A DNA stretch of 64,000 bases from Ktedonobacteria bacterium (GCA_027459705.1 DAIDHM010000123.1:2538-66537), one strand, 5' to 3'. Counted from the first letter of the stretch, positions 30,895-56,418 are shown. Numbers and translations: made by a program. The notes: a model not told the origin generated them from the letters alone.

Positions 30895-32862
30895 TCAGTG
30901 CACGATGAAGACCAGGCGCTGTGCGACATCCCCATTCCAGGTGACTGTCACGGTGTACGTGTCAGCTTGCAAGGAGGGGGCGTAGTGATAATAAGCCGTT
31001 GCCGCGGCATTGGGCACGTCGTAGGTCGCCGATCCAGTCTTGAGAATAGTGCCATCACTGCCCGTCACTGTCACTGTGATGTGCCCAGGACCGTATCCAG
31101 CGGCGATGCAGATATTCAGATAGACAGTGCTGCCCACCGGGAAGGTGGTGCGGTTGAGATTCGCACTACAGGAGAGATCTGGTCCATTCGTCAGTGTTGC
31201 CCGCGGAATGGCCAGGGCTGCCATGGTGTTGATAGTGGCAGTTGCCGTTGGGCCGACACTGGTCGCTGTCGGCCCAACGGAGGTCGCTGTCGCCGCAGTG
31301 GTCGTGGGCTGGCTGGTTCCCACGCTCGTCAGCGACGAGCCAGAGTTCCCCTGATTATTGTTGCTGAGATGACTGATGATCAAGAACGCGAGCAATGCAA
31401 CCCCCAACACCGCGACGACGATCGTGGGTAAGCGCCAGCGACTACCCGACGAGAATTGATGGGGTAGCGGGCGCGGCAGGGGCTCTGATGGTCGCCGCAC
31501 CGGGCGACTCTCGCGGCGACCACTGTCGCCACCAAGTGCCGGTGCGGCGATAGGGGTTTGCACGGTGCCCCGGTCGGCGATATCTGGCGTGCCCACCGCG
31601 ACGGACACGGGGGTCATATGCGTCGGCAATTCAGCGACATCGGGCATGCTGGGTCGCGGGTGAGTCAATGGATGGCTCTTGAAGCGGGGTCCGGAAGGAG
31701 TAGGGTGCGTGATGCGAGGATGGGCTGGCTCGGCCATCGGCAGCATCTCTTGGGTTTTACGCGCGGTCATATCGTCGCCACGCTGCGTCGGAACCCTGGC
31801 CGCGTCGGGCAATTGCGACAGATCGAGCGAAGGATGCACTGGCTCTTCACCCATAGGTGGAATTGAAATGCCAGGTGGATTCACTGGCATGAACGGCGGG
31901 GGTACGAGCAATCCCGGCGTCCCGCGGTCGCCATGGTTTTGTAGATTGAGGTCATCATTCGACTCGCGCAGATCGAGTTGAGACAAGGGGGTCGTCAGTG
32001 GCCGCGAACGCCGAATGACCTTATCCGTCGGTTCGATAAAGGGATGGAGCGCTTCAGCAAACGCCGCCGCCGTCGGAAAGCGATCATTCGGATTTTTCGC
32101 CAGTGCCTCTTCGATGATCAGGGCGAGCGCCCGCGGCACCTCGGGGTTGAAACCACGAACATACGCTGGTCGGGTGTGCACATGCTGGTAGCAGATCGAG
32201 AGCGCTGTCGGACCGACAAAGGGCGGTCGCCCGGCCAGCGACTCATATAGTACACAGGCCAGTCCATAGATATCCGCCCGGGGATCGATCTCTTCGCCTT
32301 TGGCTTGTTCGGGCGCCATGTATTCGGGTGTGCCGACCGCGGTGCCAGTCTTGGTTACGCCTTTCTGACCGATGATCTTGGCAATGCCAAAGTCCGCCAG
32401 CAGCAGATGGTGAGGATCACGATCGTCGATGAGCATATTAGCGGGTTTGACATCACGATGGATGATGTCATGGCGGTGGGCATGGTCAAGTGCCTGCGCC
32501 ATCTGCACCGCCATCGAACAGGCCTCCGCAATCGAGAGCGGCTTGCCCAGACGACTGCGATATGTCCCCCCCATGACGAGTTGCATAGCGATGTAAACAA
32601 ACTCATCCGTCTGATCAGTATCAAAGACGCGCACGATGTTGGGATGATCTAAGCGCAAGACCGCGCGCGCTTCATGCTCGAAGCGCCGCGAGAAGCCTCG
32701 CGAATCGCTACTATCGGCACTCGATGCCATAACTTTGATGGCGGCATCTCCGCCGGTGACGGCGTTGCGCGCGCGATACACACGCGACATGCCACCCCGC
32801 GCAATCTCTGCCTCGATGAGATAATCACCAAGGCGCGCGCCAATCAAATCATTCCATCCCAT
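30895..32862 (-). CDS. Membrane Ser/Thr protein kinase (Hanks type) with an extracellular beta-rich domain
   Basis: GGMSRVYRA...AIKV, HRDVKPANML, DFGIA, GTPEYMAPE. Single TM (LPTIVVAVLGVALLAFLII). (GPTATSV)n repeat and a C-terminal Ig-like domain. GAGG SD lies before ATG 32862. Confidence 0.9.
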   Translation of the reverse strand: MGWNDLIGARLGDYLIEAEIARGGMSRVYRARNAVTGGDAAIKVMASSADSSDSRGFSRRFEHEARAVLRLDHPNIVRVFDTDQTDEFVYIAMQLVMGGTYRSRLGKPLSIAEACSMAVQMAQALDHAHRHDIIHRDVKPANMLIDDRDPHHLLLADFGIAKIIGQKGVTKTGTAVGTPEYMAPEQAKGEEIDPRADIYGLACVLYESLAGRPPFVGPTALSICYQHVHTRPAYVRGFNPEVPRALALIIEEALAKNPNDRFPTAAAFAEALHPFIEPTDKVIRRSRPLTTPLSQLDLRESNDDLNLQNHGDRGTPGLLVPPPFMPVNPPGISIPPMGEEPVHPSLDLSQLPDAARVPTQRGDDMTARKTQEMLPMAEPAHPRITHPTPSGPRFKSHPLTHPRPSMPDVAELPTHMTPVSVAVGTPDIADRGTVQTPIAAPALGGDSGRRESRPVRRPSEPLPRPLPHQFSSGSRWRLPTIVVAVLGVALLAFLIISHLSNNNQGNSGSSLTSVGTSQPTTTAATATSVGPTATSVGPTATATINTMAALAIPRATLTNGPDLSCSANLNRTTFPVGSTVYLNICIAAGYGPGHITVTVTGSDGTILKTGSATYDVPNAAATAYYHYAPSLQADTYTVTVTWNGDVAQRLVFIVH

Positions 32863-33141
32863 GCCACGCCTCATTATTCAACAGCTGACCTGCGTTGTCT
32901 GGAGATCGCGCTGCAATTATCCACTGCTAGACTATAGCTATTCTAACCCATGACCGAACCTGCTGTATAGGCAATAGACAAGATGGCGAGAAAATGGCCT
33001 ATCGCCTGGCTTGCGGAGCCTTCAATTGGTCATACGGACTGAGACAAATGTCCCAGTCCGTATGGGGGAGCGCGCAAGTGCACGGTCGCGATATCGCGCG
33101 CGGCCACCGCTCGTCACGACCCAATGGCGGCGAGGCCACCC

Positions 33142-46492: not shown

Positions 46493-47029
46493 ATGCATCT
46501 TACTGAACTTCCCCACATCCTCCACCGGAGTGCACCGCCAGGACGCTGGTATACCCGCTTTCTCCCCAGCCAGGATCACGGACAGCAGCCGCTGGCTGTG
46601 GCGGCTCTGGCCGGAACCGTAGCGGCTGCGGCCTACGCGGCGGAGATGTATGTCGACAAAGCCGTCACCGGGAGCGATTTTGACGATATTCAACTGGTAG
46701 AATCGGCGATCCGAGGACGTATGGCGCGCGTGCCGGTGCTCGGGATGTCCATCCATCTTGCTAACGGTGCGGCGCTGGCTGTCATTTATGATCAGTTGGT
46801 TCGTCCACGCCTGCGCGGCCCTGCCTGGGTACGCGGCCTCACCTTCGGACTGATGTTTCTCGCGGCGGTCTGGCCCCTGACCCCATTGGTCGACCGCCTG
46901 CATCCATTGATACGGCGCGGCGAGATGCCACGCCTCGCGCGCCCTACGCCCTTTGCGCAAAATGTCGCACGGCACCTGGTGTTTGGTCTCGTGGTAGGTC
47001 TCGTGTGTCCTGGCCGGAAGCCGCGCTAG
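46493..47029 (+). CDS. Hypothetical membrane protein (178 aa)
   Basis: ORF with a GAGGG SD-like element. 3-4 hydrophobic segments. No family recognised. Confidence 0.5.
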   Translation: MHLTELPHILHRSAPPGRWYTRFLPSQDHGQQPLAVAALAGTVAAAAYAAEMYVDKAVTGSDFDDIQLVESAIRGRMARVPVLGMSIHLANGAALAVIYDQLVRPRLRGPAWVRGLTFGLMFLAAVWPLTPLVDRLHPLIRRGEMPRLARPTPFAQNVARHLVFGLVVGLVCPGRKPR

Positions 47030-47219: not shown

Positions 47220-48239
47220 GTGTCGCAATCGCTTGTGGAGACGTTAGAGGGACGGCAGATTGGTCAATACCAGATCGTGCGTGAAATCGGACGGGGATCG
47301 ATGGGCGCGGTCTATAGTGCCTTTGTCATCAAAAATCCCCAGCAGACCGTCGCCATTAAGATCCTGCTGGAGGCACTCGCCACTGATCCGTCATTTATCA
47401 CGCGGTTCATGCGCGAAACCGAAGCGTTGCGCAAGATGCATCATCCCAATATTATCCGCGTTCTGGATCATGGACAAGACGAGTCCATGCTGTATTACGT
47501 CATGGAATATATTCAAGGGCGTACGGCAGGAGCAATTCTCAAGCAACAACAACGTATCACCGTCTCACAGTCGATCGAAATCGCCGCCCAGGTCGCCGAC
47601 GCGCTGGACTATGTCCATGCGACCGGTCAAGTAATCCACCGCGATATCAAGCCAGACAATATTATGGTCGATCGCTGGTATCATGTAAAAGTGCTGGATT
47701 TCGGCCTGGCGCGTATCGACGGTGCCTATACCATTACTCGCGTAGGTATGGTCGTGGGCAGCCTCTACTACGTGCCCCCCGAACACCTGCGCGGTGATAA
47801 AATTGATGGGCGCGCGGACATTTACGCCCTGGGGGTTAGCCTCTATGAGATGGTGACCGGTGAACGTCCATTCCGGGGGAAGAACCTGCAAGATATGACC
47901 CGCGCGATCAGTGCTGGCAACCCCATTCCTCCCAGCTTGCTGGAACCCTCCGTCCCCCCCGAACTCGAGCGCATCATTCTCCGCGCTCTGGCGCGTCGCC
48001 GCGAGGATCGCTATGCTCGCGCGAGTGAGATGCGCGATGATCTTCGGCGGTTGCAGCAACAAACCATCGATATCGCCGAGATCGATGTGCCCAAGACGCA
48101 ACCAATGCCCTCAGTGCCCAACAGTCATCCCGACGCACCGCCCCGCATGCCGCGTTTTTCGCGCGCGTCCGCACCTGGCAACACCCAGCACGATGCCCGA
48201 TTTCCTGCATCACCCTACGAAGATCATTGGAAAGGATAA
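47220..48239 (+). CDS. Soluble Ser/Thr protein kinase (Hanks type)
   Basis: GTG start. GRGSMGAVYSA...AIKIL, HRDIKPDNIM, DFGLA, YYVPPE. No TM segment; short Pro-rich tail. Confidence 0.9.
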   Translation: MSQSLVETLEGRQIGQYQIVREIGRGSMGAVYSAFVIKNPQQTVAIKILLEALATDPSFITRFMRETEALRKMHHPNIIRVLDHGQDESMLYYVMEYIQGRTAGAILKQQQRITVSQSIEIAAQVADALDYVHATGQVIHRDIKPDNIMVDRWYHVKVLDFGLARIDGAYTITRVGMVVGSLYYVPPEHLRGDKIDGRADIYALGVSLYEMVTGERPFRGKNLQDMTRAISAGNPIPPSLLEPSVPPELERIILRALARRREDRYARASEMRDDLRRLQQQTIDIAEIDVPKTQPMPSVPNSHPDAPPRMPRFSRASAPGNTQHDARFPASPYEDHWKG

Positions 48240-48248
48240 TGCCGTCTG

Positions 48249-48977
48249 ATGCCCGTAAGATATAATCCTGAACCGTTTCCTGGTCGTCTCTTCGTTGTCG
48301 AAGGGGTCGATGGATCTGGGAAGAGTACCCAGATCTCCCTGCTGAAGCAATGGCTGGTCAATGAAGGATATACCGTCTTTTTTAGCGAATGGAACTCTTC
48401 GCCACTCGTCAAAGAGACGACCAGTCGCGGCAAGAAAAAACATCTCCTCACCCCCACGACGTTTAGCCTCATTCATGCCACGGACTTCGCTGATCGCACC
48501 GAAAAGTGGATCATTCCGCCTCTCAAGGCCGGGGCGATTGTTCTGGCTGATCGCTATGTCTACACGGCCTTCGCGCGCGATGTGGCGCGTGGCATCGAAT
48601 CCGAGTGGGTCCGCAATCTGTATTCTTTCGCGGTCAAACCAACCGTCGCATTCTATTTTCGCGTCCCCCTCGATATTTCCTTGAAACGCATCCTGGGAGG
48701 TCGCGCGGAACTGAAATATTATGAAGCAGGCATGGATATGGGCCTCGCTAATACCCCGGAAGATAGTTTCCGGATCTTCCAGGGGCGCATTATGGAGCAA
48801 TACGACAGCATGGTGGAGGAGTGTGGGCTGACAGTGATGGACGCCATGCTCGCAATCCCAGAACAACAGAAAATCATGCGTGAATTGGTAAGACCCTATC
48901 TGGAGGGCTTGCACCACCAGCCACACCGCGAACGCAATATCCTCGTACAATCTTCCATCCAGGAGACTCAGGTATGA
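48249..48977 (+). CDS. Thymidylate-kinase-like P-loop protein, paralog 1
   Basis: P-loop FVVEGVDGSGKSTQ, DRY motif LADRYVYTAF. Starts 9 nt after the kinase stop. Confidence 0.8.
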   Translation: MPVRYNPEPFPGRLFVVEGVDGSGKSTQISLLKQWLVNEGYTVFFSEWNSSPLVKETTSRGKKKHLLTPTTFSLIHATDFADRTEKWIIPPLKAGAIVLADRYVYTAFARDVARGIESEWVRNLYSFAVKPTVAFYFRVPLDISLKRILGGRAELKYYEAGMDMGLANTPEDSFRIFQGRIMEQYDSMVEECGLTVMDAMLAIPEQQKIMRELVRPYLEGLHHQPHRERNILVQSSIQETQV

Positions 48978-49666
48978 CGAAGTCGATCTTTTACGGAACT
49001 TCAAATTTCGAGCTCGATCCAGATGAACTGGTACCAGGACGGCTCTTCGTCATCGAAGGTACGGATGGCGTCGGCCGATCTACCCAAATTACCTTGCTGC
49101 GGCCGTGGCTAGAGAGCATGGGCTTCGCCGTGGTCGATACCGGCCTGCGGCGTTCCCCGCTGGTTGGTAAGGGTATCGATGCGGCGAAAATTGGGCATAC
49201 CATGGGGCCATTGACGATGGACCTTTTCTATGCCACCGATTTCGCTGACCGCCTCGAAAACCTGATCCTCCCGGCATTGCGTGCTGGTTTCATCGTCCTC
49301 ACCGATCGCTATATCTACTCATTGATTGCCCGCGCGGTGGTCAGGGGTGCTGAACGCGACTGGATTGAGTCGGTGTATGGGCTGGCACTGGTGCCAGACG
49401 CGGTCTTTTATCTCAGCCTGGATGTGCCGACGCTGGTCCAACGAATTGTGCCGCGCGGTTTCGATTACTGGGAATCGGGTATGGATATGCGTCTCGGCGA
49501 GGATCTGTATGAAAGTTTCGTCGCCTACCAGACCCGTATATTGAAGCAATTCGATCGCATGGCGGCGCATTATCGATTTCAAAAAATCGACGCCAATCGA
49601 TCGATCCCCCAGGTCAACGGCGATCTTCAACGCCGGATTGCATCGCTCCTGCCGACTGGCGGTTAG
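48974..49666 (+). CDS. Thymidylate-kinase-like P-loop protein, paralog 2 (Walker A Lys replaced by Arg)
   Basis: FVIEGTDGVGRSTQ (Arg codon CGA at 49076-49078), LTDRYIYSLI. ATGA overlap with paralog 1. Confidence 0.8.
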   Translation: MTKSIFYGTSNFELDPDELVPGRLFVIEGTDGVGRSTQITLLRPWLESMGFAVVDTGLRRSPLVGKGIDAAKIGHTMGPLTMDLFYATDFADRLENLILPALRAGFIVLTDRYIYSLIARAVVRGAERDWIESVYGLALVPDAVFYLSLDVPTLVQRIVPRGFDYWESGMDMRLGEDLYESFVAYQTRILKQFDRMAAHYRFQKIDANRSIPQVNGDLQRRIASLLPTGG

Positions 49667-49678
49667 CACAGCGTATTC

Positions 49679-49732
49679 CCAACAACGAACAGACCCGTAG
49701 CCTGCTCAGGCGACGGGTCTGTTTGTTGTTGG
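49679..49732. terminator. 20-bp-stem hairpin between convergent operons
   Basis: CCAACAACGAACAGACCCGT-N14-ACGGGTCTGTTTGTTGTTGG (one G-U pair). Confidence 0.75.
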
Positions 49733-49737
49733 AAACC

Positions 49738-50601
49738 TTATAGGATGATTTCATCATCATCAAGTTCTGGCAGATCATCCGTTGGGGTATGGAGGAGGCC
49801 TTCCGCCTTGAGGATGAGCAGGAATTTGGGATTGTACGTGCGGTCGCAGGCACCACAGGAGACAGGGCGCGAATAGCGGCGTACACGGGGATATTCTTTG
49901 CCGCATTCCGGGCAGGCATAGAGATATTTGATCGGTCTTGAAGACCGCAATACTTTCTCACGGCGCGCGGTCTCGTCGCGCAATAACTGTCTGAGCACCT
50001 CAGGATCGCGTTCTGTCAGGGCGGCCTCATCCACCGCAATCGCGTCATAACCATGGCAGTGGTGACGACGTGGCCGACCCCGCACTCGATCAGAAAGATG
50101 AATGAGTTCATGCGCGATGGTGACTTCTCGGCCAAGCGCAAGAAGATCCGATTCGATGAAGATAAGATGACGGTGACGGCTGGTTGACAGGTGAGAGGGA
50201 CTGGATGGCGCGATGACATCAAATCCTGGCAAGGGCAGTTGCGCACCATTTGGCTCGATCGCATGCGGACTGGCGGTATTAGACATACTAACTTGCCCGC
50301 GACCATGTTCGGCTTCTGGGGTGCCAGGAAGATAACAATAGCATCCGAGAGCGAGTGGATTGAGGCGACGACCCGTCCAGCGCGCAAATTCACGACGATC
50401 CTGGGTGAGAGCAATGCGGCCGCGTTCCGCCTGATTGAGATTCAACTTCGCCCAGTAATGATCTAGCCAATAAAGAACGTCGGGATGTGCATGAAGAATA
50501 GGTAAGACATGCAGGGCTGGCGGTTCTATGACCAAAGAGGATTGCGGTTTCTTGGCAGTGTTCTGCATGCGATTGGTGCTCTGTGACCGGAACCGGGTCA
50601 C
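49738..50601 (-). CDS. SprT-like zinc metalloprotease-domain protein with a C-terminal zinc ribbon
   Basis: HExxH in TIAHELIHLSD. CPEC-x15-CGAC ribbon. Acidic tail DDLPELDDDEIIL. Confidence 0.65.
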   Translation of the reverse strand: MTRFRSQSTNRMQNTAKKPQSSLVIEPPALHVLPILHAHPDVLYWLDHYWAKLNLNQAERGRIALTQDRREFARWTGRRLNPLALGCYCYLPGTPEAEHGRGQVSMSNTASPHAIEPNGAQLPLPGFDVIAPSSPSHLSTSRHRHLIFIESDLLALGREVTIAHELIHLSDRVRGRPRRHHCHGYDAIAVDEAALTERDPEVLRQLLRDETARREKVLRSSRPIKYLYACPECGKEYPRVRRYSRPVSCGACDRTYNPKFLLILKAEGLLHTPTDDLPELDDDEIIL

Positions 50602-50908
50602 AAACTCACCATCCTCCCTTCTGACCTGTGGCGCACGATCCGCTGGCTCTCACGCGAAGCGCAGCACCAGAGCGCAGCAACGCCACATCTAGCGCCAGTA
50701 TAGCGAGGCATCTCGCTCGACGCAACAACGGTTCAGCACGCGATGACCTCAAATACCCACCTCTCTCTGAAAGGGTCTCCGTTCAGTATGTGTACAGGCC
50801 ATCGATGCTCTCATCATCATAAACGCGAGGGTGCATACTCGGTCATGACAATCCCCCATCCGTCTCATTTTACCTATTTTTATTGCCCCCAGGAGAGAAT
50901 GCCCCTAT

Positions 50909-51955
50909 TTGGCACGATGGCAGAAGCCGATGATGCACACCAGAACCATTCTTGCGAAAGCGAGGCATCGCCAAGTGACTGCGCAACATCTCACTTCCCA
51001 TTCCTGGACAGCCTACTGGGAAGAGCATGGACAACCGTGGCGTATCGAAGCCGAGATCGAACCAGCCCGTCAGCAACTACTCCGTAAGCATCTCCAAATT
51101 GTCGCGGATGTAACCAAGATGCGTTTTCCATTCTCAGAGGTCGCGCTCTGTCGGGCGGATATCGAGTGGATCCTGGCGAACTATTTCCCTGAATATACGT
51201 TTGCCCACCAGGACTCGGTCTCCCTTTCCAGCCTCCCGACCCAGCCGCTGATCCTGGATTTGCGAGGCGCTCATCTGGAAGGAATCAATCTGCGCGCCTT
51301 GCCTTTGCCAGGGGTCCGCGCGGGGCTGAGCGATGAAGAGGCGCGTCAACTACCTGCCGCGCAACGGCAGGCGGCTGCTGTGCATCTGGAGGGTAGTGAC
51401 CTTCGAGATGCGTTTCTCCTCGGTGCGCAACTCGCGGGCGCGCATCTGGAGCGCGCCAATCTGGAAAATGCCATTCTCATGCGTGCCAACCTCACCTATG
51501 CCTCATTACACGGCGCGAACCTGAGCCTGGCATTTTTGCAAGGCGCGAATTTGCAACACGCGCATCTTGAAGGCACCTTGGTTGCCATGGCCCATCTGGA
51601 TGATGCCAATCTCCTCGGTACGCACTTCGAAGGGAGCGACCTGCAGGAATTGGTGCAGGAAGTTCGCGCGATTGCCTCGCAAGAGCATGAAGATCAAAAG
51701 CACCATGTCACCCATGATGAGGTTTTGCACGAGTTGCGCGTTGCACTCAGTCACCGCTTGCAAGCAATTTCCGATGAGGCAGCGGAGATTACCGCGCGTA
51801 ATATCTTCCATTTCCAGGATCACCGGCAATATTGGGAAGAGATGCAATTTGCGGTCACCTTCGAGCGCCAGCGTCGCCAGGCTGGAAAAAGCGCATTTTC
51901 GTATGGCCAGATTGTCCAAATCTTACACAATGCCCTCCACGAGGAGGCAGCATAA
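50909..51955 (+). CDS. Pentapeptide-repeat protein
   Basis: TTG start with AGGAGA 12 nt upstream. Central run of A(D/N)LXX repeats (...GAHLERANLENAILMRANLTYASLHGANLSLAFLQGANLQHAHLEG...). Confidence 0.85.
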   Translation: MARWQKPMMHTRTILAKARHRQVTAQHLTSHSWTAYWEEHGQPWRIEAEIEPARQQLLRKHLQIVADVTKMRFPFSEVALCRADIEWILANYFPEYTFAHQDSVSLSSLPTQPLILDLRGAHLEGINLRALPLPGVRAGLSDEEARQLPAAQRQAAAVHLEGSDLRDAFLLGAQLAGAHLERANLENAILMRANLTYASLHGANLSLAFLQGANLQHAHLEGTLVAMAHLDDANLLGTHFEGSDLQELVQEVRAIASQEHEDQKHHVTHDEVLHELRVALSHRLQAISDEAAEITARNIFHFQDHRQYWEEMQFAVTFERQRRQAGKSAFSYGQIVQILHNALHEEAA

Positions 51956-52008
51956 GGGGACCAGGGCGCTTGACGCATCTGCCCACGCAGGTGTAGGCTG
52001 ATGGCGAC

Positions 52009-52959
52009 ATGCTCATCTTGCGTTTTCAAGAATGGGCCACGCGTTTTACCGCGATCATCATTACAGCATTCCCGCTGATGGTCCTGGGCGTCCTGGCCTT
52101 CGCGACAGTCGAATATTTCATCCCGCGCGAGCGCATTTTGGGTTGGGTGCCGCGACGTCGCTGGCTGGCGATCCCGGTGGCAGCACTGCTGGGGATACTG
52201 GTGCCGGTCTGCGATTGTGGGGTTGTCCCAACCACGCGGGCCTTCCTCCGCCAGGAGGTAGGCCTCGCGCCCGCGCTGGCATTCCTCATAGGCGCGCCTG
52301 TCATCAACCCGATTGTCCTGATCACGACTGCAGCTGGGTTTGGAGGCAACTATACCATCGCGTTCGCCCGGCTGGCCCTGACCTATGTGGTGGCGGTGGT
52401 GGTTGGCGGCCTGGCCCTGGTGGCCTTCGGAGACGCGCCGATCGATTCACTCCTCATCCCTCCCGCGCCACCGCCACCGATCTCACCCCGTCGTGTCAAA
52501 CGGCAACATCGCCATCAACAAGCGCATGTCGCCATACTGACGCTGCCGCCATTCGCCCGCATTGTCGCGCACATCGCGCGCGATGCTGGCGAAGAATTGT
52601 TAGACCTGGGCCGTTATCTGGTGGTGGGTGCGCTGGTGGCCTCCGCCGTGCAGACCTTTGTGCCGCAAGCGCCACTCATCTCGGTCAGCCAGGGAGTTCT
52701 GACGTCGACCATCTCACTGATGATTCTGGCGAGTATCCTCTCCGTCTGTTCGATCAGCGACGCGCCGATCGCGGCATCATTTCTGGGAGTCTTCGCGCCT
52801 GGCGCGATCTTCGCGTTCATGATCTTTGGCCAGATTATTGATCTTAAGAATACCGCGATGTTGTTGGCGACTTTCCGCCGCAATGTGGTCATCTTCCTGG
52901 CGGTGGCCAGCGCGCTCTGCGTTGTGGCGCTGGCGACATTGGTGAATATTGGGATATGA
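52009..52959 (+). CDS. Permease, UPF0718/ArsP-like family
   Basis: 8 or more TM, conserved LVPVCDCGVVP motif near TM3. Confidence 0.75.
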   Translation: MLILRFQEWATRFTAIIITAFPLMVLGVLAFATVEYFIPRERILGWVPRRRWLAIPVAALLGILVPVCDCGVVPTTRAFLRQEVGLAPALAFLIGAPVINPIVLITTAAGFGGNYTIAFARLALTYVVAVVVGGLALVAFGDAPIDSLLIPPAPPPPISPRRVKRQHRHQQAHVAILTLPPFARIVAHIARDAGEELLDLGRYLVVGALVASAVQTFVPQAPLISVSQGVLTSTISLMILASILSVCSISDAPIAASFLGVFAPGAIFAFMIFGQIIDLKNTAMLLATFRRNVVIFLAVASALCVVALATLVNIGI

Positions 52960-53711: not shown

Positions 53712-56177
53712 TCAGTTCCCGTACTGCCGAAAGCGGCGGACCCGCTCGGCATAGAGTTGGAGCCGCTCGATGACCAGCGCGTTGATGGTGTTGCTGAGAT
53801 ACTCACCCTGGGGATTGGGTCGGCCCGCTGGCCGCCCCATGAGCAATTCCACCGCCTCATCGACAGCGCGCACCGCGTAAATTTGAAAGGCGCCACGCCG
53901 CACAGCCTCGATAATATCCAACCGTAGCATCAAGTTACGGACATTCGCGGCTGGAATAATGACACCCTGAGTGCCATTCAATCCCAGGATCGCGCAGGTA
54001 TCAAAGAATCCTTCAACCTTGGCTGTCACCCCACCAACCGCCTGCACTTCGCCGTACTGGTTCACCGAACCGGTAACCGCCAGATCCTGACGGATCGGCA
54101 CGTCGCTCAGCGTCGAGAGCAACGCGCAGAGTTCCGCTAGCGATGCGCTGTCTCCGTCGACGCCGTCATAGACTTGCTCGAAGGTGATCGTCGCCGCCAG
54201 ACTGAGGGGCTGTTCCTGGCCATAGCGACCTGCGAGGTAGCCGCTAATGGTCAGGACGCCTTTGGAGTGGATTGGCCCGCTCAACTGCACCTCGCGCTCT
54301 ACATCCACCACACCCGCCACGCCTGGCGCAGCTCGCGCCGTGATGCGCATCGGTCGACCAAAGACCGCACCCAGCGTGGTAATTACCGCCAGGCCATTGA
54401 CCTGTCCCACCGCATGGCCGGCAACTGCGATTTTCAGCGCCCCACGACGGATGCTCTCATCGATACGGTCGGCCCCGATACCCAACCGTCGACGTCGCAT
54501 TTTCGTTGCTTGGTCGATAGTGGCCGCCTCGATCGTCGCCAGGCCAGTCTTGCGCGCCCAGTAACTTGCCTCAATCACCAGATCACGGAGGGTAGACAGC
54601 GAGGTCGACAGCTTGGTCTGATCTTCGGCTATGCGCGAGCCTTCTTCGATAATGAGCGCCACAGCTGTAGGCGTCAGAGGCGGCAGGTCCAGCGACCGCG
54701 CGACATCACCGACGAACTGGGCGTAGTACCCCTCGGTCAGACTGTTGCGTGGCATCTGAGCATCGAAGTCTGCCCGAACCTTAAAGATTTCGGCGAAATC
54801 GGGATCATTTTCATTCAAGATATTCCAGGTCTCATAGTCACCTAGTAGCAACACTTTGACGCGCAGCGGGATGGGCGCGGGCTTGAGCGATGCAGCCAAT
54901 GCCACCGCTTGCTGTGGATCGACGGGATTCTCGATCGTGATCGTCCCGGTACGCAACGATCGTTTCAGCACTTCCCAGGCCTTTGGCGAAGAGAGCAACT
55001 CGCGGGCATGAATGATCAGGAAGCCGCCATTGGCGCGATGCAGTGCTCCAGACTTGATGAAGCTGAAATCTGTGAAGAGGTTCCCCATTCGCGTCCCATA
55101 TTCGAGCCGCCCCGCCAGGTTGTAGTACGTCGGGTTATGCTCATGAATCGCGGGGGCATGCGTCTCGCCAACGCGGTCTACCAGGACGTTGACACGGTAG
55201 CGGATGAGCGATGGGGGCGCGGCCTGGGCATTACGCATCATCTGTTCGATGCCATCGCCGCTTTCCCCAGCGTTTTCGGCACTCTCCTTCTCTTCTCCGT
55301 CCATGCGGAGCCGCGACGCATTGGCGACGACGTCATCCATAACCTGATCGAGATAGTCACGTACTTCCACAGTCTGGGCGAAACGCGCCCGTAGCGCCTC
55401 ATAGACTGGTAAGATGGCCTCGCGTGCGACGCCGGAATCAACTTCGCGTAACAAAGCACGTTCCTGCACCACGAGGCGGCGATTCGCGGCGGCGGCGGCG
55501 GCAAAAGCTTCCTGGACATTATCGTAATTCCCGCGGAACTGCTCCTTGTCAGCATCGGACAGCGCGCTAAATTCTTCGGGGGGATAGGTCTGACGTTCTT
55601 CGCCTTCGACGGCTGGCTTCAGCGGGATGAAATTGGGGCCATCTTCGCCAGGCTGCACCGCGAAGCCAAGTTCTTCCGCGCGCGTCTCGAACTCCTTGCT
55701 CAAGCGCTCGCGCTGTTCTTCGACTTCTTTGACGGCCGCGGCGCGCCGTCTGCGATAAGCTTCGGCGTCGAAAGCGTCGCGCAAAGCCTGGCGCGCGGCG
55801 TCGATTGCGCCTTCGACAGCATGCGCGAATTCTACCGCTTGACCCGCGGGGAACTCGATCGCGCGTGGTTCGTACGGTTTGGCGAAATTGTGGACGTAGA
55901 CCCAGTCACTGGGCACTGCCTGGTTGGCGGCCAGGGTCTCCACCATGCCGACTGTCGAGACGCTGCGTCCCGAACCAGACGGACCAGCAACGAAGATATT
56001 ATAACGACTATCTGGTACTTCCAGCCCAAAAATCAACGCCTCGGCAGCGCGATCTTGTCCGGTCAGGCGTTGCGGTGGTGGAAGAGCAGCGGTATTCGCA
56101 AAGCCGAAAGAAGCGGGATCGCTGCGTGCGCGCAGCTGTTCTGGCGGCACCGCCAGGGTATGAGACGCAGGGTGCAT
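53712..56177 (-). CDS. LonC-type Lon-like protease (degenerate AAA+ module plus S16 Ser-Lys protease domain)
   Basis: Walker A reads GPSGSGRS. The Walker B position reads GGFLIIHARELL. The protease domain has DGDSAS...GGVTAK, with Ser-to-Lys spacing of 43. GGAG SD lies before ATG 56177. Confidence 0.85.
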   Translation of the reverse strand: MHPASHTLAVPPEQLRARSDPASFGFANTAALPPPQRLTGQDRAAEALIFGLEVPDSRYNIFVAGPSGSGRSVSTVGMVETLAANQAVPSDWVYVHNFAKPYEPRAIEFPAGQAVEFAHAVEGAIDAARQALRDAFDAEAYRRRRAAAVKEVEEQRERLSKEFETRAEELGFAVQPGEDGPNFIPLKPAVEGEERQTYPPEEFSALSDADKEQFRGNYDNVQEAFAAAAAANRRLVVQERALLREVDSGVAREAILPVYEALRARFAQTVEVRDYLDQVMDDVVANASRLRMDGEEKESAENAGESGDGIEQMMRNAQAAPPSLIRYRVNVLVDRVGETHAPAIHEHNPTYYNLAGRLEYGTRMGNLFTDFSFIKSGALHRANGGFLIIHARELLSSPKAWEVLKRSLRTGTITIENPVDPQQAVALAASLKPAPIPLRVKVLLLGDYETWNILNENDPDFAEIFKVRADFDAQMPRNSLTEGYYAQFVGDVARSLDLPPLTPTAVALIIEEGSRIAEDQTKLSTSLSTLRDLVIEASYWARKTGLATIEAATIDQATKMRRRRLGIGADRIDESIRRGALKIAVAGHAVGQVNGLAVITTLGAVFGRPMRITARAAPGVAGVVDVEREVQLSGPIHSKGVLTISGYLAGRYGQEQPLSLAATITFEQVYDGVDGDSASLAELCALLSTLSDVPIRQDLAVTGSVNQYGEVQAVGGVTAKVEGFFDTCAILGLNGTQGVIIPAANVRNLMLRLDIIEAVRRGAFQIYAVRAVDEAVELLMGRPAGRPNPQGEYLSNTINALVIERLQLYAERVRRFRQYGN

Positions 56178-56418
56178 GGGCGATCTCCGTTGGTACAAAT
56201 TTGTGGGTGACTCCGCGCCTCACCCCGATGTTCGTGCCAACATATGCGTGACCCCATTGGTTCGCTATGCGATGGGTGGTCACAGCGCTCGTGGCAGGTG
56301 GATATCAGGCGCGGGCACATGTATGGAGTAGTATAAGCTACCAGCGGTGCGATTACCAGCATCGTGAGGACGATAGTGATATGATTGTGAGAAATGCACA
56401 CCGTCGTAGCGTCCTGAA

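What the first reader, a model, noticed from the sequence alone, without database searches (positions are those of the whole stretch)
47220..49732. Ser/Thr kinase followed by a tandem pair of divergent thymidylate-kinase-like proteins: a compact three-gene unit of unknown function
Seen:
- A soluble 339-aa Hanks kinase (HRDIKPDN, DFG, no TM segment) stops at 48239.
- Nine nt later a 242-aa Tmk-like protein starts (EGVDGSGKST P-loop, ADRYVYT).
- Its stop overlaps (ATGA, 48974-48977) the start of a 230-aa paralog (EGTDGVGRST, TDRYIYS).
- The paralogs share extra motifs absent, as far as I recall, from housekeeping Tmk: ...SPLV... shortly after the P-loop helix and Y[YW]E[AS]GMDM[GR]L.
- Neither shows the TREPGG-like segment I associate with dTMP binding.
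- A 20-bp-stem hairpin (49679-49732) closes the unit.

Knowledge: tmk is normally single-copy and linked to holB and replication genes, not to a eukaryotic-like kinase.

Inference: this is a kinase-controlled, probably heteromeric P-loop phosphotransferase acting on an unknown nucleotide or other acceptor. I know of no described system with this architecture.
Basis: partly seen in the sequence, partly recalled or inferred. Interest (0 to 1): 0.6.

Follow-up and report, generated by a model that had tools for sequence, protein, structure and literature searches.

The report
Polyphosphate kinase PPK3 pair plus kinase
The two odd "thymidylate kinase" genes are the bacterial form of the recently described two-subunit polyphosphate kinase PPK3, and only the Ser/Thr protein kinase in front of them, which recurs in one group of Ktedonobacteria, is unexplained.

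Summary
Its claim that no such system has been described is out of date.

- **Identity of gene A.** A (48249-48977) is 55% identical to Saci_2019, the catalytic subunit cPPK3 of the Sulfolobus acidocaldarius polyphosphate kinase PPK3 (PMC12995831). It keeps every cPPK3-type residue checked.
- **Identity of gene B.** B (48974-49666) is the obligate downstream partner, found next to A in about 80 genomes from at least 8 phyla.
- **Genomic context elsewhere.** In 53 of 73 non-Ktedonobacterial loci the pair sits beside Ppx, CHAD, SixA, PPK1, PPK2 or PstS genes.
- **How B differs from archaeal rPPK3.** B keeps the DRY arginine and has an invariant Walker-A Lys-to-Arg change (79/79). Its orthology to Saci_2020 was not resolved.
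- **The kinase.** It is not part of PPK3 generally. In one Ktedonobacterales clade, kinase-A-B is kept in 6 of 8 kinase-ortholog loci inspected, with three different sets of flanking genes. Two orthologs lack the pair.
- **Limits.** Regulation of PPK3 by the kinase is plausible but untested. No polyphosphate gene and no canonical tmk lies in the 64-kb window.
- **Hairpin.** It is real and is most likely a terminator between convergent genes.

Verdict: a member of a known family, with a lineage-specific kinase added.

The parts
47220..48239 (+). Soluble Hanks-type Ser/Thr protein kinase: kinase domain at residues ~15-283, followed by a ~55-aa Pro-rich tail containing an RMPRF-like motif. It is a clade-specific upstream operon partner of the PPK3 pair.
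   Evidence: - Pfam Pkinase 8.9e-52.
- Catalytic motifs are present and no TM segment is found.
- Orthologs at 62-76% identity, 322-344 aa long, occur in Ktedonobacterales.
- The kinase lies directly upstream of A-B in L082/83, L084/85, L086, L088 and L091. It does not in L089 and L092.
- The public gene call (P0240, 312 aa) starts later, inside the Gly-rich loop.
48249..48977 (+). cPPK3-type catalytic subunit of a family-3 polyphosphate kinase. It is annotated as thymidylate kinase in public sources.
   Evidence: - 55% identity and 211 bits to Saci_2019.
- E = 4e-59 to PDB 2plr/5h70, the S. tokodaii cPPK3 homologue.
- Walker-A Lys, EWNSS, DRY, R152 and K156 are invariant in 85/85 orthologs; the basic triplet at 62-64 is invariant at K62 and K/R in nearly all at 63-64. 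All are shared with Saci_2019.
- Below the TIGR00041 cutoff.
- An SD-like GGAAAGGA lies 12-19 nt upstream, inside the end of the kinase gene.
48974..49666 (+). Partner subunit, equivalent in position to rPPK3. It has Walker-A Lys-to-Arg (GVGRST) and an intact DRY, and it lacks the cPPK3-specific EWNSS, KKK, R152 and K156.
   Evidence: - It is always immediately downstream of A in the same orientation, in about 80 loci.
- 42% identical to A. 33% identity and 107 bits to Saci_2020.
- Walker-A Arg in 79/79 orthologs and DRY in 81/82.
- The same signature appears in every B-type 50%-cluster representative with a readable P-loop.
48974..48977 (+). ATGA stop/start overlap of A and B, consistent with translational coupling.
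   Evidence: Read directly from the sequence. The same 4-nt overlap is the commonest A-B junction across the other loci.
49679..49732 (.). Long perfect-stem hairpin in the 71-nt gap between the convergent genes B (+) and 49738-50601 (-). It is most likely a bidirectional transcription terminator or an RNA-end stabiliser.
   Evidence: - Minimum free energy -44.4 kcal/mol, z = -7.1.
- Single copy in the window.
- The relative L084 has a different-sequence hairpin at the same place after B.
- The simple terminator scan picks up only the inner part, followed by TTTGTTGTTG.

Best explanation
**Core claim.** Genes A and B encode the two subunits of a bacterial family-3 polyphosphate kinase (PPK3).

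**A.** A is the catalytic subunit. It transfers phosphate reversibly between ATP/ADP and inorganic polyphosphate. By analogy with the Sulfolobus enzyme it probably favours making ATP from ADP and polyphosphate when the energy charge is low.

**B.** B is a non-canonical paralog. It assembles with A, probably as A2B2, and activates it. B's Walker-A lysine is replaced by arginine, so it probably cannot catalyse transfer itself. Most of its other phosphate-contacting residues are kept, so it probably still binds a phosphate-rich ligand.

**Transcription.** The three genes are probably transcribed together, up to the hairpin terminator.

**The kinase.** The Ser/Thr kinase is an addition specific to one Ktedonobacterales clade. 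In that clade the usual neighbours (Ppx, SixA, CHAD) are absent. It plausibly couples PPK3 activity, or the cell's polyphosphate state, to protein-phosphorylation signalling.

**What is shown.**
- Family identity.
- Conservation of the pair.
- The polyphosphate gene context in other phyla.
- The clade-limited link to the kinase.

**What is inferred.**
- The enzymatic activity and the oligomer, both by homology to SaPPK3.
- Co-transcription.
- Any regulation by the kinase. I put that sub-claim at about 0.3.
For: **Family identity.**
- A against Saci_2019 (experimentally a polyP kinase with no dTMPK activity, PMC12995831): 55% identity, 211 bits.
- A against the cPPK3 crystal structure 2plr/5h70: E = 4e-59.
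- The S. acidocaldarius locus fetched here reads SixA-Ppx-Saci_2019-Saci_2020-CHAD, with the same c-then-r order and overlapping genes.
- In an NJ tree, A, B and the archaeal PPK3 subunits separate from three canonical Tmks in 100% of 200 bootstraps. A groups with archaeal cPPK3 in 72%.
- cPPK3-type residues are invariant in 85 A orthologs and lost in B.

**Pair conservation and context.**
- The A-then-B tandem is found in essentially all 80 loci from species genomes of at least 8 phyla.
- Neighbour gene clusters were verified by Pfam as CHAD (38 loci), Ppx-GppA (37), His_Phos_1/SixA (27), PPK1 (4), PPK2 (4) and a PstS-like protein (4).
- At least one of these is present in 53 of 73 non-Ktedonobacterial loci.

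**Kinase.**
- Kinase-A-B is confirmed in the window, L082/83, L084/85, L086, L088 and L091.
- The kinase-to-A gaps are 6-81 nt, and there are three different flanking contexts.
- 14 kinase-ortholog clusters share a contig length with A-type clusters. That they lie on the same contig is my inference.
Against: - No Ppx, CHAD, SixA, PPK1, PPK2 or PstS gene lies in the 64-kb window, or next to the pair in 8 other Ktedonobacteria-type loci. Support from genomic context is therefore borrowed from other phyla.
- B does not match the published rPPK3 signature of a replaced DRX arginine. B keeps DRY.
- In the NJ tree B groups with Saci_2020 in only 10% of bootstraps. B's role as a regulatory subunit therefore rests on its position next to A and on the residues it has lost, not on demonstrated orthology.
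- No bacterial PPK3 has been assayed.
- Two close kinase orthologs (70% and 72% identity) have no A-B next to them.
- Outside this clade, no comparable small kinase sits directly upstream of the pair.
- No Ser/Thr position in A or B is specific to the kinase-linked clade.
- Ktedonobacteria carry many such kinases. The window alone has a second one.
Confidence: 0.8

Rival explanations
1. The pair is PPK3, but the kinase is a passenger. It was captured into the operon in one clade and has been retained by operon inertia, and its substrates lie elsewhere. PPK3 is not under kinase control.
For: - The kinase is absent upstream of the pair in 80 other loci, including other Ktedonobacteria such as K. 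rubrisoli and Dictyobacter alpinus.
- The orthologs P0254 and P0246 have no A-B next to them.
- No clade-specific Ser/Thr site appears in A or B.
- There is no FHA domain or other docking domain.
- Kinases of this type are numerous in these genomes.
Against: - Kinase-A-B persists at 62-76% kinase identity through at least three different flanking contexts, with short gaps.
- In L005 a second, unrelated kinase lies directly after B.
- In L088, PP2C phosphatase genes lie close downstream.
Confidence: 0.5
2. One reading: a heteromeric (d)NMP kinase for an unknown or modified nucleotide, not polyphosphate.
For: - Both proteins hit the Thymidylate_kin profile, and public sources name them dTMP kinase.
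- The S. tokodaii homologue was originally published as an unusual thymidylate kinase, as cited in the preprint 10.1101/2024.08.28.610084.
Against: - Saci_2019 and Saci_2020 form no dTDP from dTMP, whereas Saci_0893 does (PMC12995831).
- The dTMP-site segment is replaced.
- The neighbours in other phyla are polyphosphate genes, not nucleotide-metabolism genes.
Confidence: 0.06
3. An anti-phage defence module made of a kinase and nucleotide-kinase-like effectors.
For: - The kinase matches PADLOC PD-T4-6 and mad6 kinase profiles (E down to 8e-89).
- B weakly matches PDC-M51B (9.4e-8, 30 bits).
Against: - The PADLOC kinase hits are generic kinase-domain matches.
- A and B are 61-87% and 55-85% identical across phyla, with housekeeping-like conservation and polyphosphate neighbours. 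Defence islands do not look like this.
- No other defence genes are adjacent.
Confidence: 0.03
4. In bacterial PPK3, B is not an inert regulator. It is a second ligand-binding subunit, or even a catalytic one, that uses the Walker-A arginine. It could, for example, hold the polyphosphate chain.
For: - B is under strong purifying selection at positions equivalent to the active site. R25, R50, R83, D101-R102-Y103, R110, R114, R147, E159 and D163 are nearly invariant in 82 sequences.
- Arg replaces Lys in 79 of 79 sequences rather than being lost or varied.
- Unlike Saci_2020, B keeps DRY.
Against: - Walker-A Lys-to-Arg usually abolishes phosphoryl transfer in P-loop enzymes. This is general knowledge and was not tested here.
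- B lacks the basic residues conserved in cPPK3 (KKK, R152, K156).
- The only assayed r subunit is inactive (PMC12995831).
Confidence: 0.25

Closest known systems
SaPPK3 of Sulfolobus acidocaldarius: Saci_2019 (cPPK3) plus Saci_2020 (rPPK3). Hofmann et al., J Biol Chem 2026, PMC12995831; preprint 10.1101/2024.08.28.610084.
   Same: - Two adjacent Tmk-superfamily paralogs in the order c then r, with overlapping genes.
- A is 55% identical to Saci_2019 and keeps Walker A, DRY, EWNSS, KKK, R152 and K156.
- The partner lacks the c-specific basic residues and has a damaged catalytic motif.
- Orthologous pairs in other bacteria sit with Ppx, SixA and CHAD genes, as in Sulfolobus.
   Different: - B's defect is Walker-A Lys-to-Arg with DRY intact. 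Saci_2020 keeps the lysine and has DGY.
- B was not resolved as an ortholog of Saci_2020.
- This locus has no Ppx, SixA or CHAD gene and has a Hanks kinase upstream instead.
- The host is a mesophile-type bacterium, and no biochemistry exists for it.
Canonical thymidylate kinase (Tmk; TIGR00041, PF02223)
   Same: P-loop kinase fold, DRY motif and LID arginine. Both proteins pass the Pfam family threshold.
   Different: - Below the TIGR00041 equivalog cutoff.
- The dTMP-binding TREPGG-type segment is replaced.
- There is an insertion of about 11 aa with E-x-G-x-D in the LID region.
- They form a separate clade with 100% bootstrap support.
- The characterised homologues lack dTMPK activity (PMC12995831).
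Two-domain class II PPK2 (e.g. P. aeruginosa PA3455)
   Same: An active P-loop kinase module is paired with a degenerate paralogous module that drives oligomerisation. The enzyme is reversible and polyP-dependent. This analogy is drawn in PMC12995831.
   Different: - A different P-loop family: PPK2, not the Tmk superfamily.
- The modules are fused domains rather than two genes. Fused c-r PPK3 proteins do exist, however (P0360, P0403, P0503).
Stand-alone bacterial Hanks-type Ser/Thr kinases (PknB-like kinase domain without PASTA or TM)
   Same: A full catalytic core. The best NCBIfam match is PknB_PASTA_kin, over the kinase domain only.
   Different: It has no TM segment, PASTA repeats or FHA partner. 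It scores below every curated family cutoff. Its ortholog group is restricted to Ktedonobacterales.

Membership tests
PPK3 (family-3 polyphosphate kinase, PMC12995831) | Both subunits belong to the dTMPK superfamily and fold. | tested here: met
   PF02223 at 2.4e-19 and 7.3e-20. Full-length matches to 2plr/5h70 at 4e-59 and 8e-35.
PPK3 (family-3 polyphosphate kinase, PMC12995831) | The proteins fall in a clade distinct from canonical dTMPK. | tested here: met
   [quoted passage not shown] Both proteins are below the TIGR00041 cutoff.
PPK3 (family-3 polyphosphate kinase, PMC12995831) | Two adjacent paralogous genes, catalytic then regulatory. | tested here: met
   A then B with a 4-nt overlap here. 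The same order is seen in about 80 loci and in S. acidocaldarius L087.
PPK3 (family-3 polyphosphate kinase, PMC12995831) | The catalytic subunit has an intact Walker A and DRX, and conserved basic residues that the partner lacks. | tested here: met
   K25, DRY, R152 and K156 are 85/85 in A orthologs; in the basic triplet 62-64, K62 is 85/85 and 63-64 are K/R in nearly all. All are shared with Saci_2019. B has K-E-G at 62-64, a deletion at 152 and D at 156. The paper's exact list of cleft residues (Fig. S16) was not available to me.
PPK3 (family-3 polyphosphate kinase, PMC12995831) | The dTMP-binding residues of dTMPK are not conserved. | tested here: met
   SEWNSS (A) and TGLRRS (B) align with the E. 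coli TREPGG segment.
PPK3 (family-3 polyphosphate kinase, PMC12995831) | The regulatory subunit has the DRX arginine replaced, as stated for rPPK3s. | tested here: not met
   B keeps DRY, as do 81 of 82 B orthologs. The Walker-A Lys is Arg instead (79/79). Saci_2020 has GKT and DGY.
PPK3 (family-3 polyphosphate kinase, PMC12995831) | B is orthologous to the characterised rPPK3 (Saci_2020). | tested here: inconclusive
   Saci_2020 scores best against B (107 bits) rather than A (89 bits) or Saci_2019 (78 bits). The NJ tree, however, unites B with Saci_2020 in only 10% of bootstraps, and Saci_2020 sits on a long branch.
PPK3 (family-3 polyphosphate kinase, PMC12995831) | Operon association with polyP genes (Ppx, SixA, CHAD). 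| tested here: not met
   No such gene lies in the 64-kb window, and none lies next to the pair in L001-L008. The feature is met for orthologous pairs elsewhere, in 53 of 73 loci.
PPK3 (family-3 polyphosphate kinase, PMC12995831) | Reversible ATP:polyP phosphotransferase activity and an alpha2beta2 assembly. | not testable with these tools
   This needs purified proteins.
PPK3 (family-3 polyphosphate kinase, PMC12995831) | A canonical dTMPK is encoded elsewhere in the genome, and PPK1 and PPK2 are usually absent. | not testable with these tools
   Only 64 kb of the genome is available. Within it there is no canonical tmk, PPK1 or PPK2.
Canonical dTMP kinase (TIGR00041 equivalog) | Score at or above the curated cutoff of 83.25 bits. 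| tested here: not met
   76.4 bits for A and 75.1 bits for B.
Hanks-type Ser/Thr protein kinase | A complete catalytic core: Gly loop, VAIK Lys, HRD catalytic loop and DFG. | tested here: met
   Pkinase at 8.9e-52. The motifs lie at residues 24, 44, 140 and 160, and the catalytic residues (K47, HRD, DFG and the loop glycines) are invariant among 12 homologs.
PD-T4-6 / Stk-type anti-phage kinases (PADLOC) | A defence-island context and a specific family match beyond the kinase domain. | tested here: not met
   The hits cover only the generic kinase domain. The neighbouring genes are not defence genes.

The most novel reading that the evidence does not exclude
In one Ktedonobacterales clade, PPK3 has exchanged its usual Ppx, SixA and CHAD partners for a dedicated soluble Hanks kinase. 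That kinase phosphorylates the c or r subunit, or senses polyphosphate, and so switches the enzyme between polyP storage and ATP regeneration. This would be the first link between Ser/Thr signalling and a polyphosphate kinase of this family. In addition, the bacterial partner subunit, with its invariant Walker-A arginine and intact DRY, would be a ligand-binding pseudo-kinase that works differently from the archaeal rPPK3.
Probability: 0.25. Interest if true: 0.55.

Novelty: new variant of a known kind. Interest (0 to 1): 0.38.

Why it matters
- **Annotation.** Public databases call these genes thymidylate kinase. Recognising them as PPK3 corrects that for a large set of soil bacteria: Chloroflexota, Acidobacteriota, Deltaproteobacteria-type lineages, Armatimonadota, Eremiobacterota and others. 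It also identifies a likely polyphosphate enzyme in lineages where phosphorus-cycling surveys look only for ppk1 and ppk2.
- **Distribution.** The published description speaks of a few scattered bacteria. The scan here found at least 590 hits in species-representative genomes.
- **Testable questions about mechanism.** The bacterial partner subunit carries a different conserved lesion from the one characterised archaeal regulator. The conserved kinase-PPK3 operon gives a concrete handle on how polyphosphate turnover might be regulated.
- **Limits.** None of this is a new kind of system, and the role of the kinase is unproven.

Tried and rejected
- **Sole canonical tmk.** Rejected. Both proteins are below the TIGR00041 cutoff, the dTMP segment is replaced, and they form a separate clade.
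- **Defence system.** The PADLOC kinase hits are generic, and the PDC-M51B hit for B is weak. Rejected on conservation and neighbourhood.
- **Kinase link as a general feature of the family.** Rejected by the genome scan.
- **Kinase link as mere synteny among close relatives.** Weakened. L088 and L091 keep kinase-A-B with different flanking genes.
- **Clade-specific Ser/Thr sites in A or B as candidate phospho-acceptors.** None found.
- **Hairpin as a repeated element or a known RNA.** The arm is unique in the window, and the window has no Rfam or tRNA hit.
- **Exact-sequence look-up of A.** The window's own A and its identical cluster representative P0001 are not on record.
- **Supplementary files of the PPK3 paper.** Not held, so its list of polyP-cleft residues and of bacterial taxa could not be compared.
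- **Structure prediction.** Not run.
Full report
**1.

- 47220-48239 (+), 339 aa from GTG.
- 48249-48977 (+), 242 aa.
- 48974-49666 (+), 230 aa.

The kinase-to-A gap is 9 nt, and A and B overlap by ATGA.

The first protein is a complete Hanks-type kinase.
- Pfam Pkinase scores 8.9e-52.
- GRGSMG, VAIK, HRDIKPDN and DFG are all present.
- No hydrophobic segment is long enough to span a membrane.

The other two proteins hit the Thymidylate_kin profile.
- Both fall below the curated dTMP-kinase cutoff of NCBIfam: 76.4 and 75.1 bits against 83.25.
- They are 42% identical to each other.

The second paralog has arginine where the Walker-A lysine should be (GVGRST).

The hairpin at 49679-49732 is real.
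- It folds at -44.4 kcal/mol, with z = -7.1 against shuffled sequences.
- It is unique in the window and lies between convergent genes.

**2. What the pair is**

The best solved-structure match for both proteins is 2plr/5h70, the "probable thymidylate kinase" STK_15430 of Sulfurisphaera tokodaii. The E-values are 4e-59 for A and 8e-35 for B. Canonical Tmks match only at about 1e-14 or worse.

A literature search on that protein led to Hofmann et al., J Biol Chem 2026 (PMC12995831; preprint 10.1101/2024.08.28.610084). They report the following for S. acidocaldarius:
- The two adjacent "thymidylate kinases" Saci_2019 and Saci_2020 have no dTMP kinase activity.
- Together they form an alpha2beta2 reversible polyphosphate kinase, named PPK3.
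- Saci_2019 is the catalytic subunit (cPPK3).
- Saci_2020 is an inactive activator (rPPK3).

I fetched the S. acidocaldarius locus. It reads SixA-Ppx-Saci_2019-Saci_2020-CHAD, as the paper describes.

| Comparison | Identity | Bits |
|---|---|---|
| A vs Saci_2019 | 55% | 211 |
| A vs Saci_2020 | 28% | 89 |
| B vs Saci_2019 | 34% | 134 |
| B vs Saci_2020 | 33% | 107 |

**3. Conservation and context in other genomes**

I scanned one genome per species with an alignment of the family.
- The best 80 loci come from Chloroflexota (Ktedonobacteria, Anaerolineae, Limnocylindria), Acidobacteriota, Deltaproteobacteria-type lineages, Binatia, Armatimonadota, Eremiobacterota, Melainabacteria and others.
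- A-type identity in these loci is 61-77%.

In essentially every locus the A-type gene is followed at once, on the same strand, by a B-type gene. The junction is often the same 4-nt overlap.

I clustered the four ORFs on each side of the pair and checked cluster representatives against Pfam:

| Neighbour family | Loci |
|---|---|
| CHAD | 38 |
| Ppx-GppA | 37 |
| His_Phos_1 (SixA-like) | 27 |
| Metallophosphatase | 13 |
| PPK1 | 4 |
| PPK2 | 4 |
| PstS-like | 4 |

At least one polyphosphate gene accompanies the pair in 53 of the 73 loci outside the Ktedonobacteria-type group. This is the neighbourhood that defines PPK3 operons in the paper.

**4. Residue patterns**

I compared 85 A-type and 82 B-type sequences column by column.

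A-type proteins share with Saci_2019 an invariant:
- Walker-A Lys,
- EWNSS segment, which sits where E. coli Tmk has its dTMP-binding TREPGG,
- DRY,
- R152 and K156.

They also share its basic triplet at 62-64, where K62 is invariant and 63-64 are K or R in nearly all.

B-type proteins differ as follows:
- They lack EWNSS.
- They have K-E-G at 62-64.
- R152 is deleted, and position 156 is D.
- Arg replaces the Walker-A Lys in 79 of 79 sequences.
- DRY is kept in 81 of 82.

Saci_2020 is damaged differently. It keeps the lysine (GKT) and has DGY.

A full-library search with B showed the same pattern in every B-type 50%-cluster representative with a readable P-loop: G-R-[ST]-T with DRY intact. 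It also turned up fused c-r proteins, some with a DGY-type second domain.

An NJ tree gave these bootstrap supports over 200 replicates:
- All PPK3-type proteins separate from three canonical Tmks: 100%.
- A groups with archaeal cPPK3: 72%.
- Bacterial B forms its own clade: 91.5%.
- B joins Saci_2020: only 10%. Saci_2020 sits on a long branch.

So A is securely a cPPK3. B is the positional and functional-type equivalent of rPPK3. It does not carry the published rPPK3 lesion, and its orthology to Saci_2020 is unresolved.

**5. The kinase**

No comparable kinase sits upstream of the pair in the 80 scanned loci. It is also absent next to the pair in K. rubrisoli and Dictyobacter alpinus.

The picture changes among the closest relatives of this window.

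| Locus | Arrangement |
|---|---|
| Window | DUF6789 - kinase - A - B |
| L082 / L083 | kinase - A - B (short contigs; upstream gene not identified) |
| L084 / L085 | DUF6789 - kinase - A - B |
| L086 | DUF6789 - kinase - A - B |
| L088 (kinase 62% identical) | kinase - A - B, unrelated flanks, two PP2C phosphatase genes about 1.2 kb downstream |
| L091 (kinase 69% identical) | MarR - kinase - A - B - M42 peptidase |
| L089 (kinase 70% identical) | no A-B beside the kinase |
| L092 (kinase 72% identical) | no A-B, but the same ArsP permease downstream as in the window |

The kinase has a well-defined ortholog group of 62-76% identity, 322-344 aa, with a variable Pro-rich tail carrying an R-x-P-R-[FY] motif. 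L092 suggests that A-B was lost or moved in that genome.

A further 14 kinase-ortholog clusters share a contig length with A-type clusters. I take that as probable co-location on the same contig, not as proof.

The kinase-A-B operon is therefore a conserved, clade-specific arrangement that has survived rearrangement of its surroundings. It is not universal even within that clade.
- I found no Ser/Thr position in A or B that is specific to the kinase-linked clade.
- Regulation of PPK3 by the kinase remains an inference, which I put at about 0.3.

**6. Local context**

The 64-kb window has no Ppx, CHAD, SixA, PPK1, PPK2, PstS or canonical tmk gene. The eight other Ktedonobacteria-type loci also lack polyphosphate neighbours.

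The assignment of function here rests on two things:
- orthology to the assayed archaeal enzyme (55% identity), and
- orthology to pairs embedded in polyphosphate operons in other phyla (61-72% identity).

Whether the genome has a separate canonical tmk and lacks ppk1 and ppk2, as the paper reports for PPK3 carriers, cannot be checked from this window.

**7. The hairpin**

The hairpin sits 13 nt after the stop codon of B and 6 nt before the stop of the convergent gene 49738-50601.
- The related contig L084 has a hairpin of different sequence at the same position.
- The simple terminator scan catches only the inner stem, followed by TTTGTTGTTG.
- The most economical reading is a bidirectional terminator or a protector of the RNA 3' end.

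**8. Comparison with what is known, and verdict**

The pair belongs to the PPK3 family.
- **Tested and met:** superfamily and fold, a clade distinct from canonical Tmk, c-then-r gene order, the residue pattern of the catalytic subunit, and loss of the dTMP site.
- **Tested and not met:** the loss of the DRX arginine stated for regulatory subunits, and a polyphosphate neighbourhood at this locus.
- **Could not be tested:** enzyme activity and oligomeric state.

It was wrong that no such system is described. It over-read the kinase as a defining part of the system.

What is new is modest:
- a kinase-linked operon variant in one Ktedonobacterales clade;
- a bacterial partner-subunit signature (Walker-A Arg with DRY intact) that differs from the characterised archaeal regulator;
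- a bacterial distribution much wider than the "few scattered bacteria" stated in the paper.

Interest: 0.38.

Noticed in passing
L002-L081 (genome scan): PPK3-type pairs are much more widespread in bacteria than the published "few taxonomically scattered bacteria". The catalytic subunit is unusually conserved, at 61-77% identity between phyla. A full-library search with B gave 223 clusters (50% identity) at E <= 1e-30.
   Followed up: partly
P0360, P0408, P0403, P0503 (representative library): Single polypeptides that fuse a cPPK3-type domain to a partner-type domain. P0408 carries both GKST and GRST P-loops. In P0403 and P0503 the second domain has DGY, as in Saci_2020.
   Followed up: partly
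L005:3814-6093: In a Ktedonobacteria-type Chloroflexota MAG, an unrelated, much larger protein kinase (about 760 aa, about 33% identical to the window's kinase) lies directly downstream of B on the same strand. This is a second, independent kinase-PPK3 adjacency.
   Followed up: no
L088:8609-10969: Two PP2C-family Ser/Thr phosphatase genes lie about 1.2 kb downstream of kinase-A-B in the most divergent kinase-linked locus.
   Followed up: no
window 47220-47300: The public gene call for the kinase (P0240, 312 aa) starts at the Met inside the Gly-rich loop GRGSMG. Orthologs of 322-344 aa align from about residue 5 of the 339-aa ORF, so the longer start is the right one.
   Followed up: partly
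L092:4001-7187 compared with window 47220-52959: A 72%-identical kinase ortholog has no A-B pair after it, but the same ArsP_1 permease family lies downstream as in the window (52009-52959). This suggests that A-B was deleted or moved in that genome.
   Followed up: no
window 49738-50601 (-): A 287-aa protein with a C-terminal zinc ribbon. It gives only faint matches to the SprT zinc-ribbon profile and to Cas12f/TnpB zinc-finger profiles (E about 1e-3). It is 61% identical to a protein at the same convergent position in L084/L085. Function unknown.
   Followed up: partly
window 46493-47029 (+): A DUF6789-like protein of 178 aa, below the Pfam cutoff. It is conserved directly upstream of the kinase in L084/85 and L086, but not in L088 or L091.
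   Followed up: partly
window 30895-32874 (-) and 53712-56198 (-): A second, larger Ser/Thr kinase homolog (32% identical to the first) and a LonC/LonB-like AAA protease lie in the same window.
   Followed up: no
window 1-64000: No tRNA gene and no Rfam family at gathering threshold anywhere in the 64 kb.
   Followed up: yes
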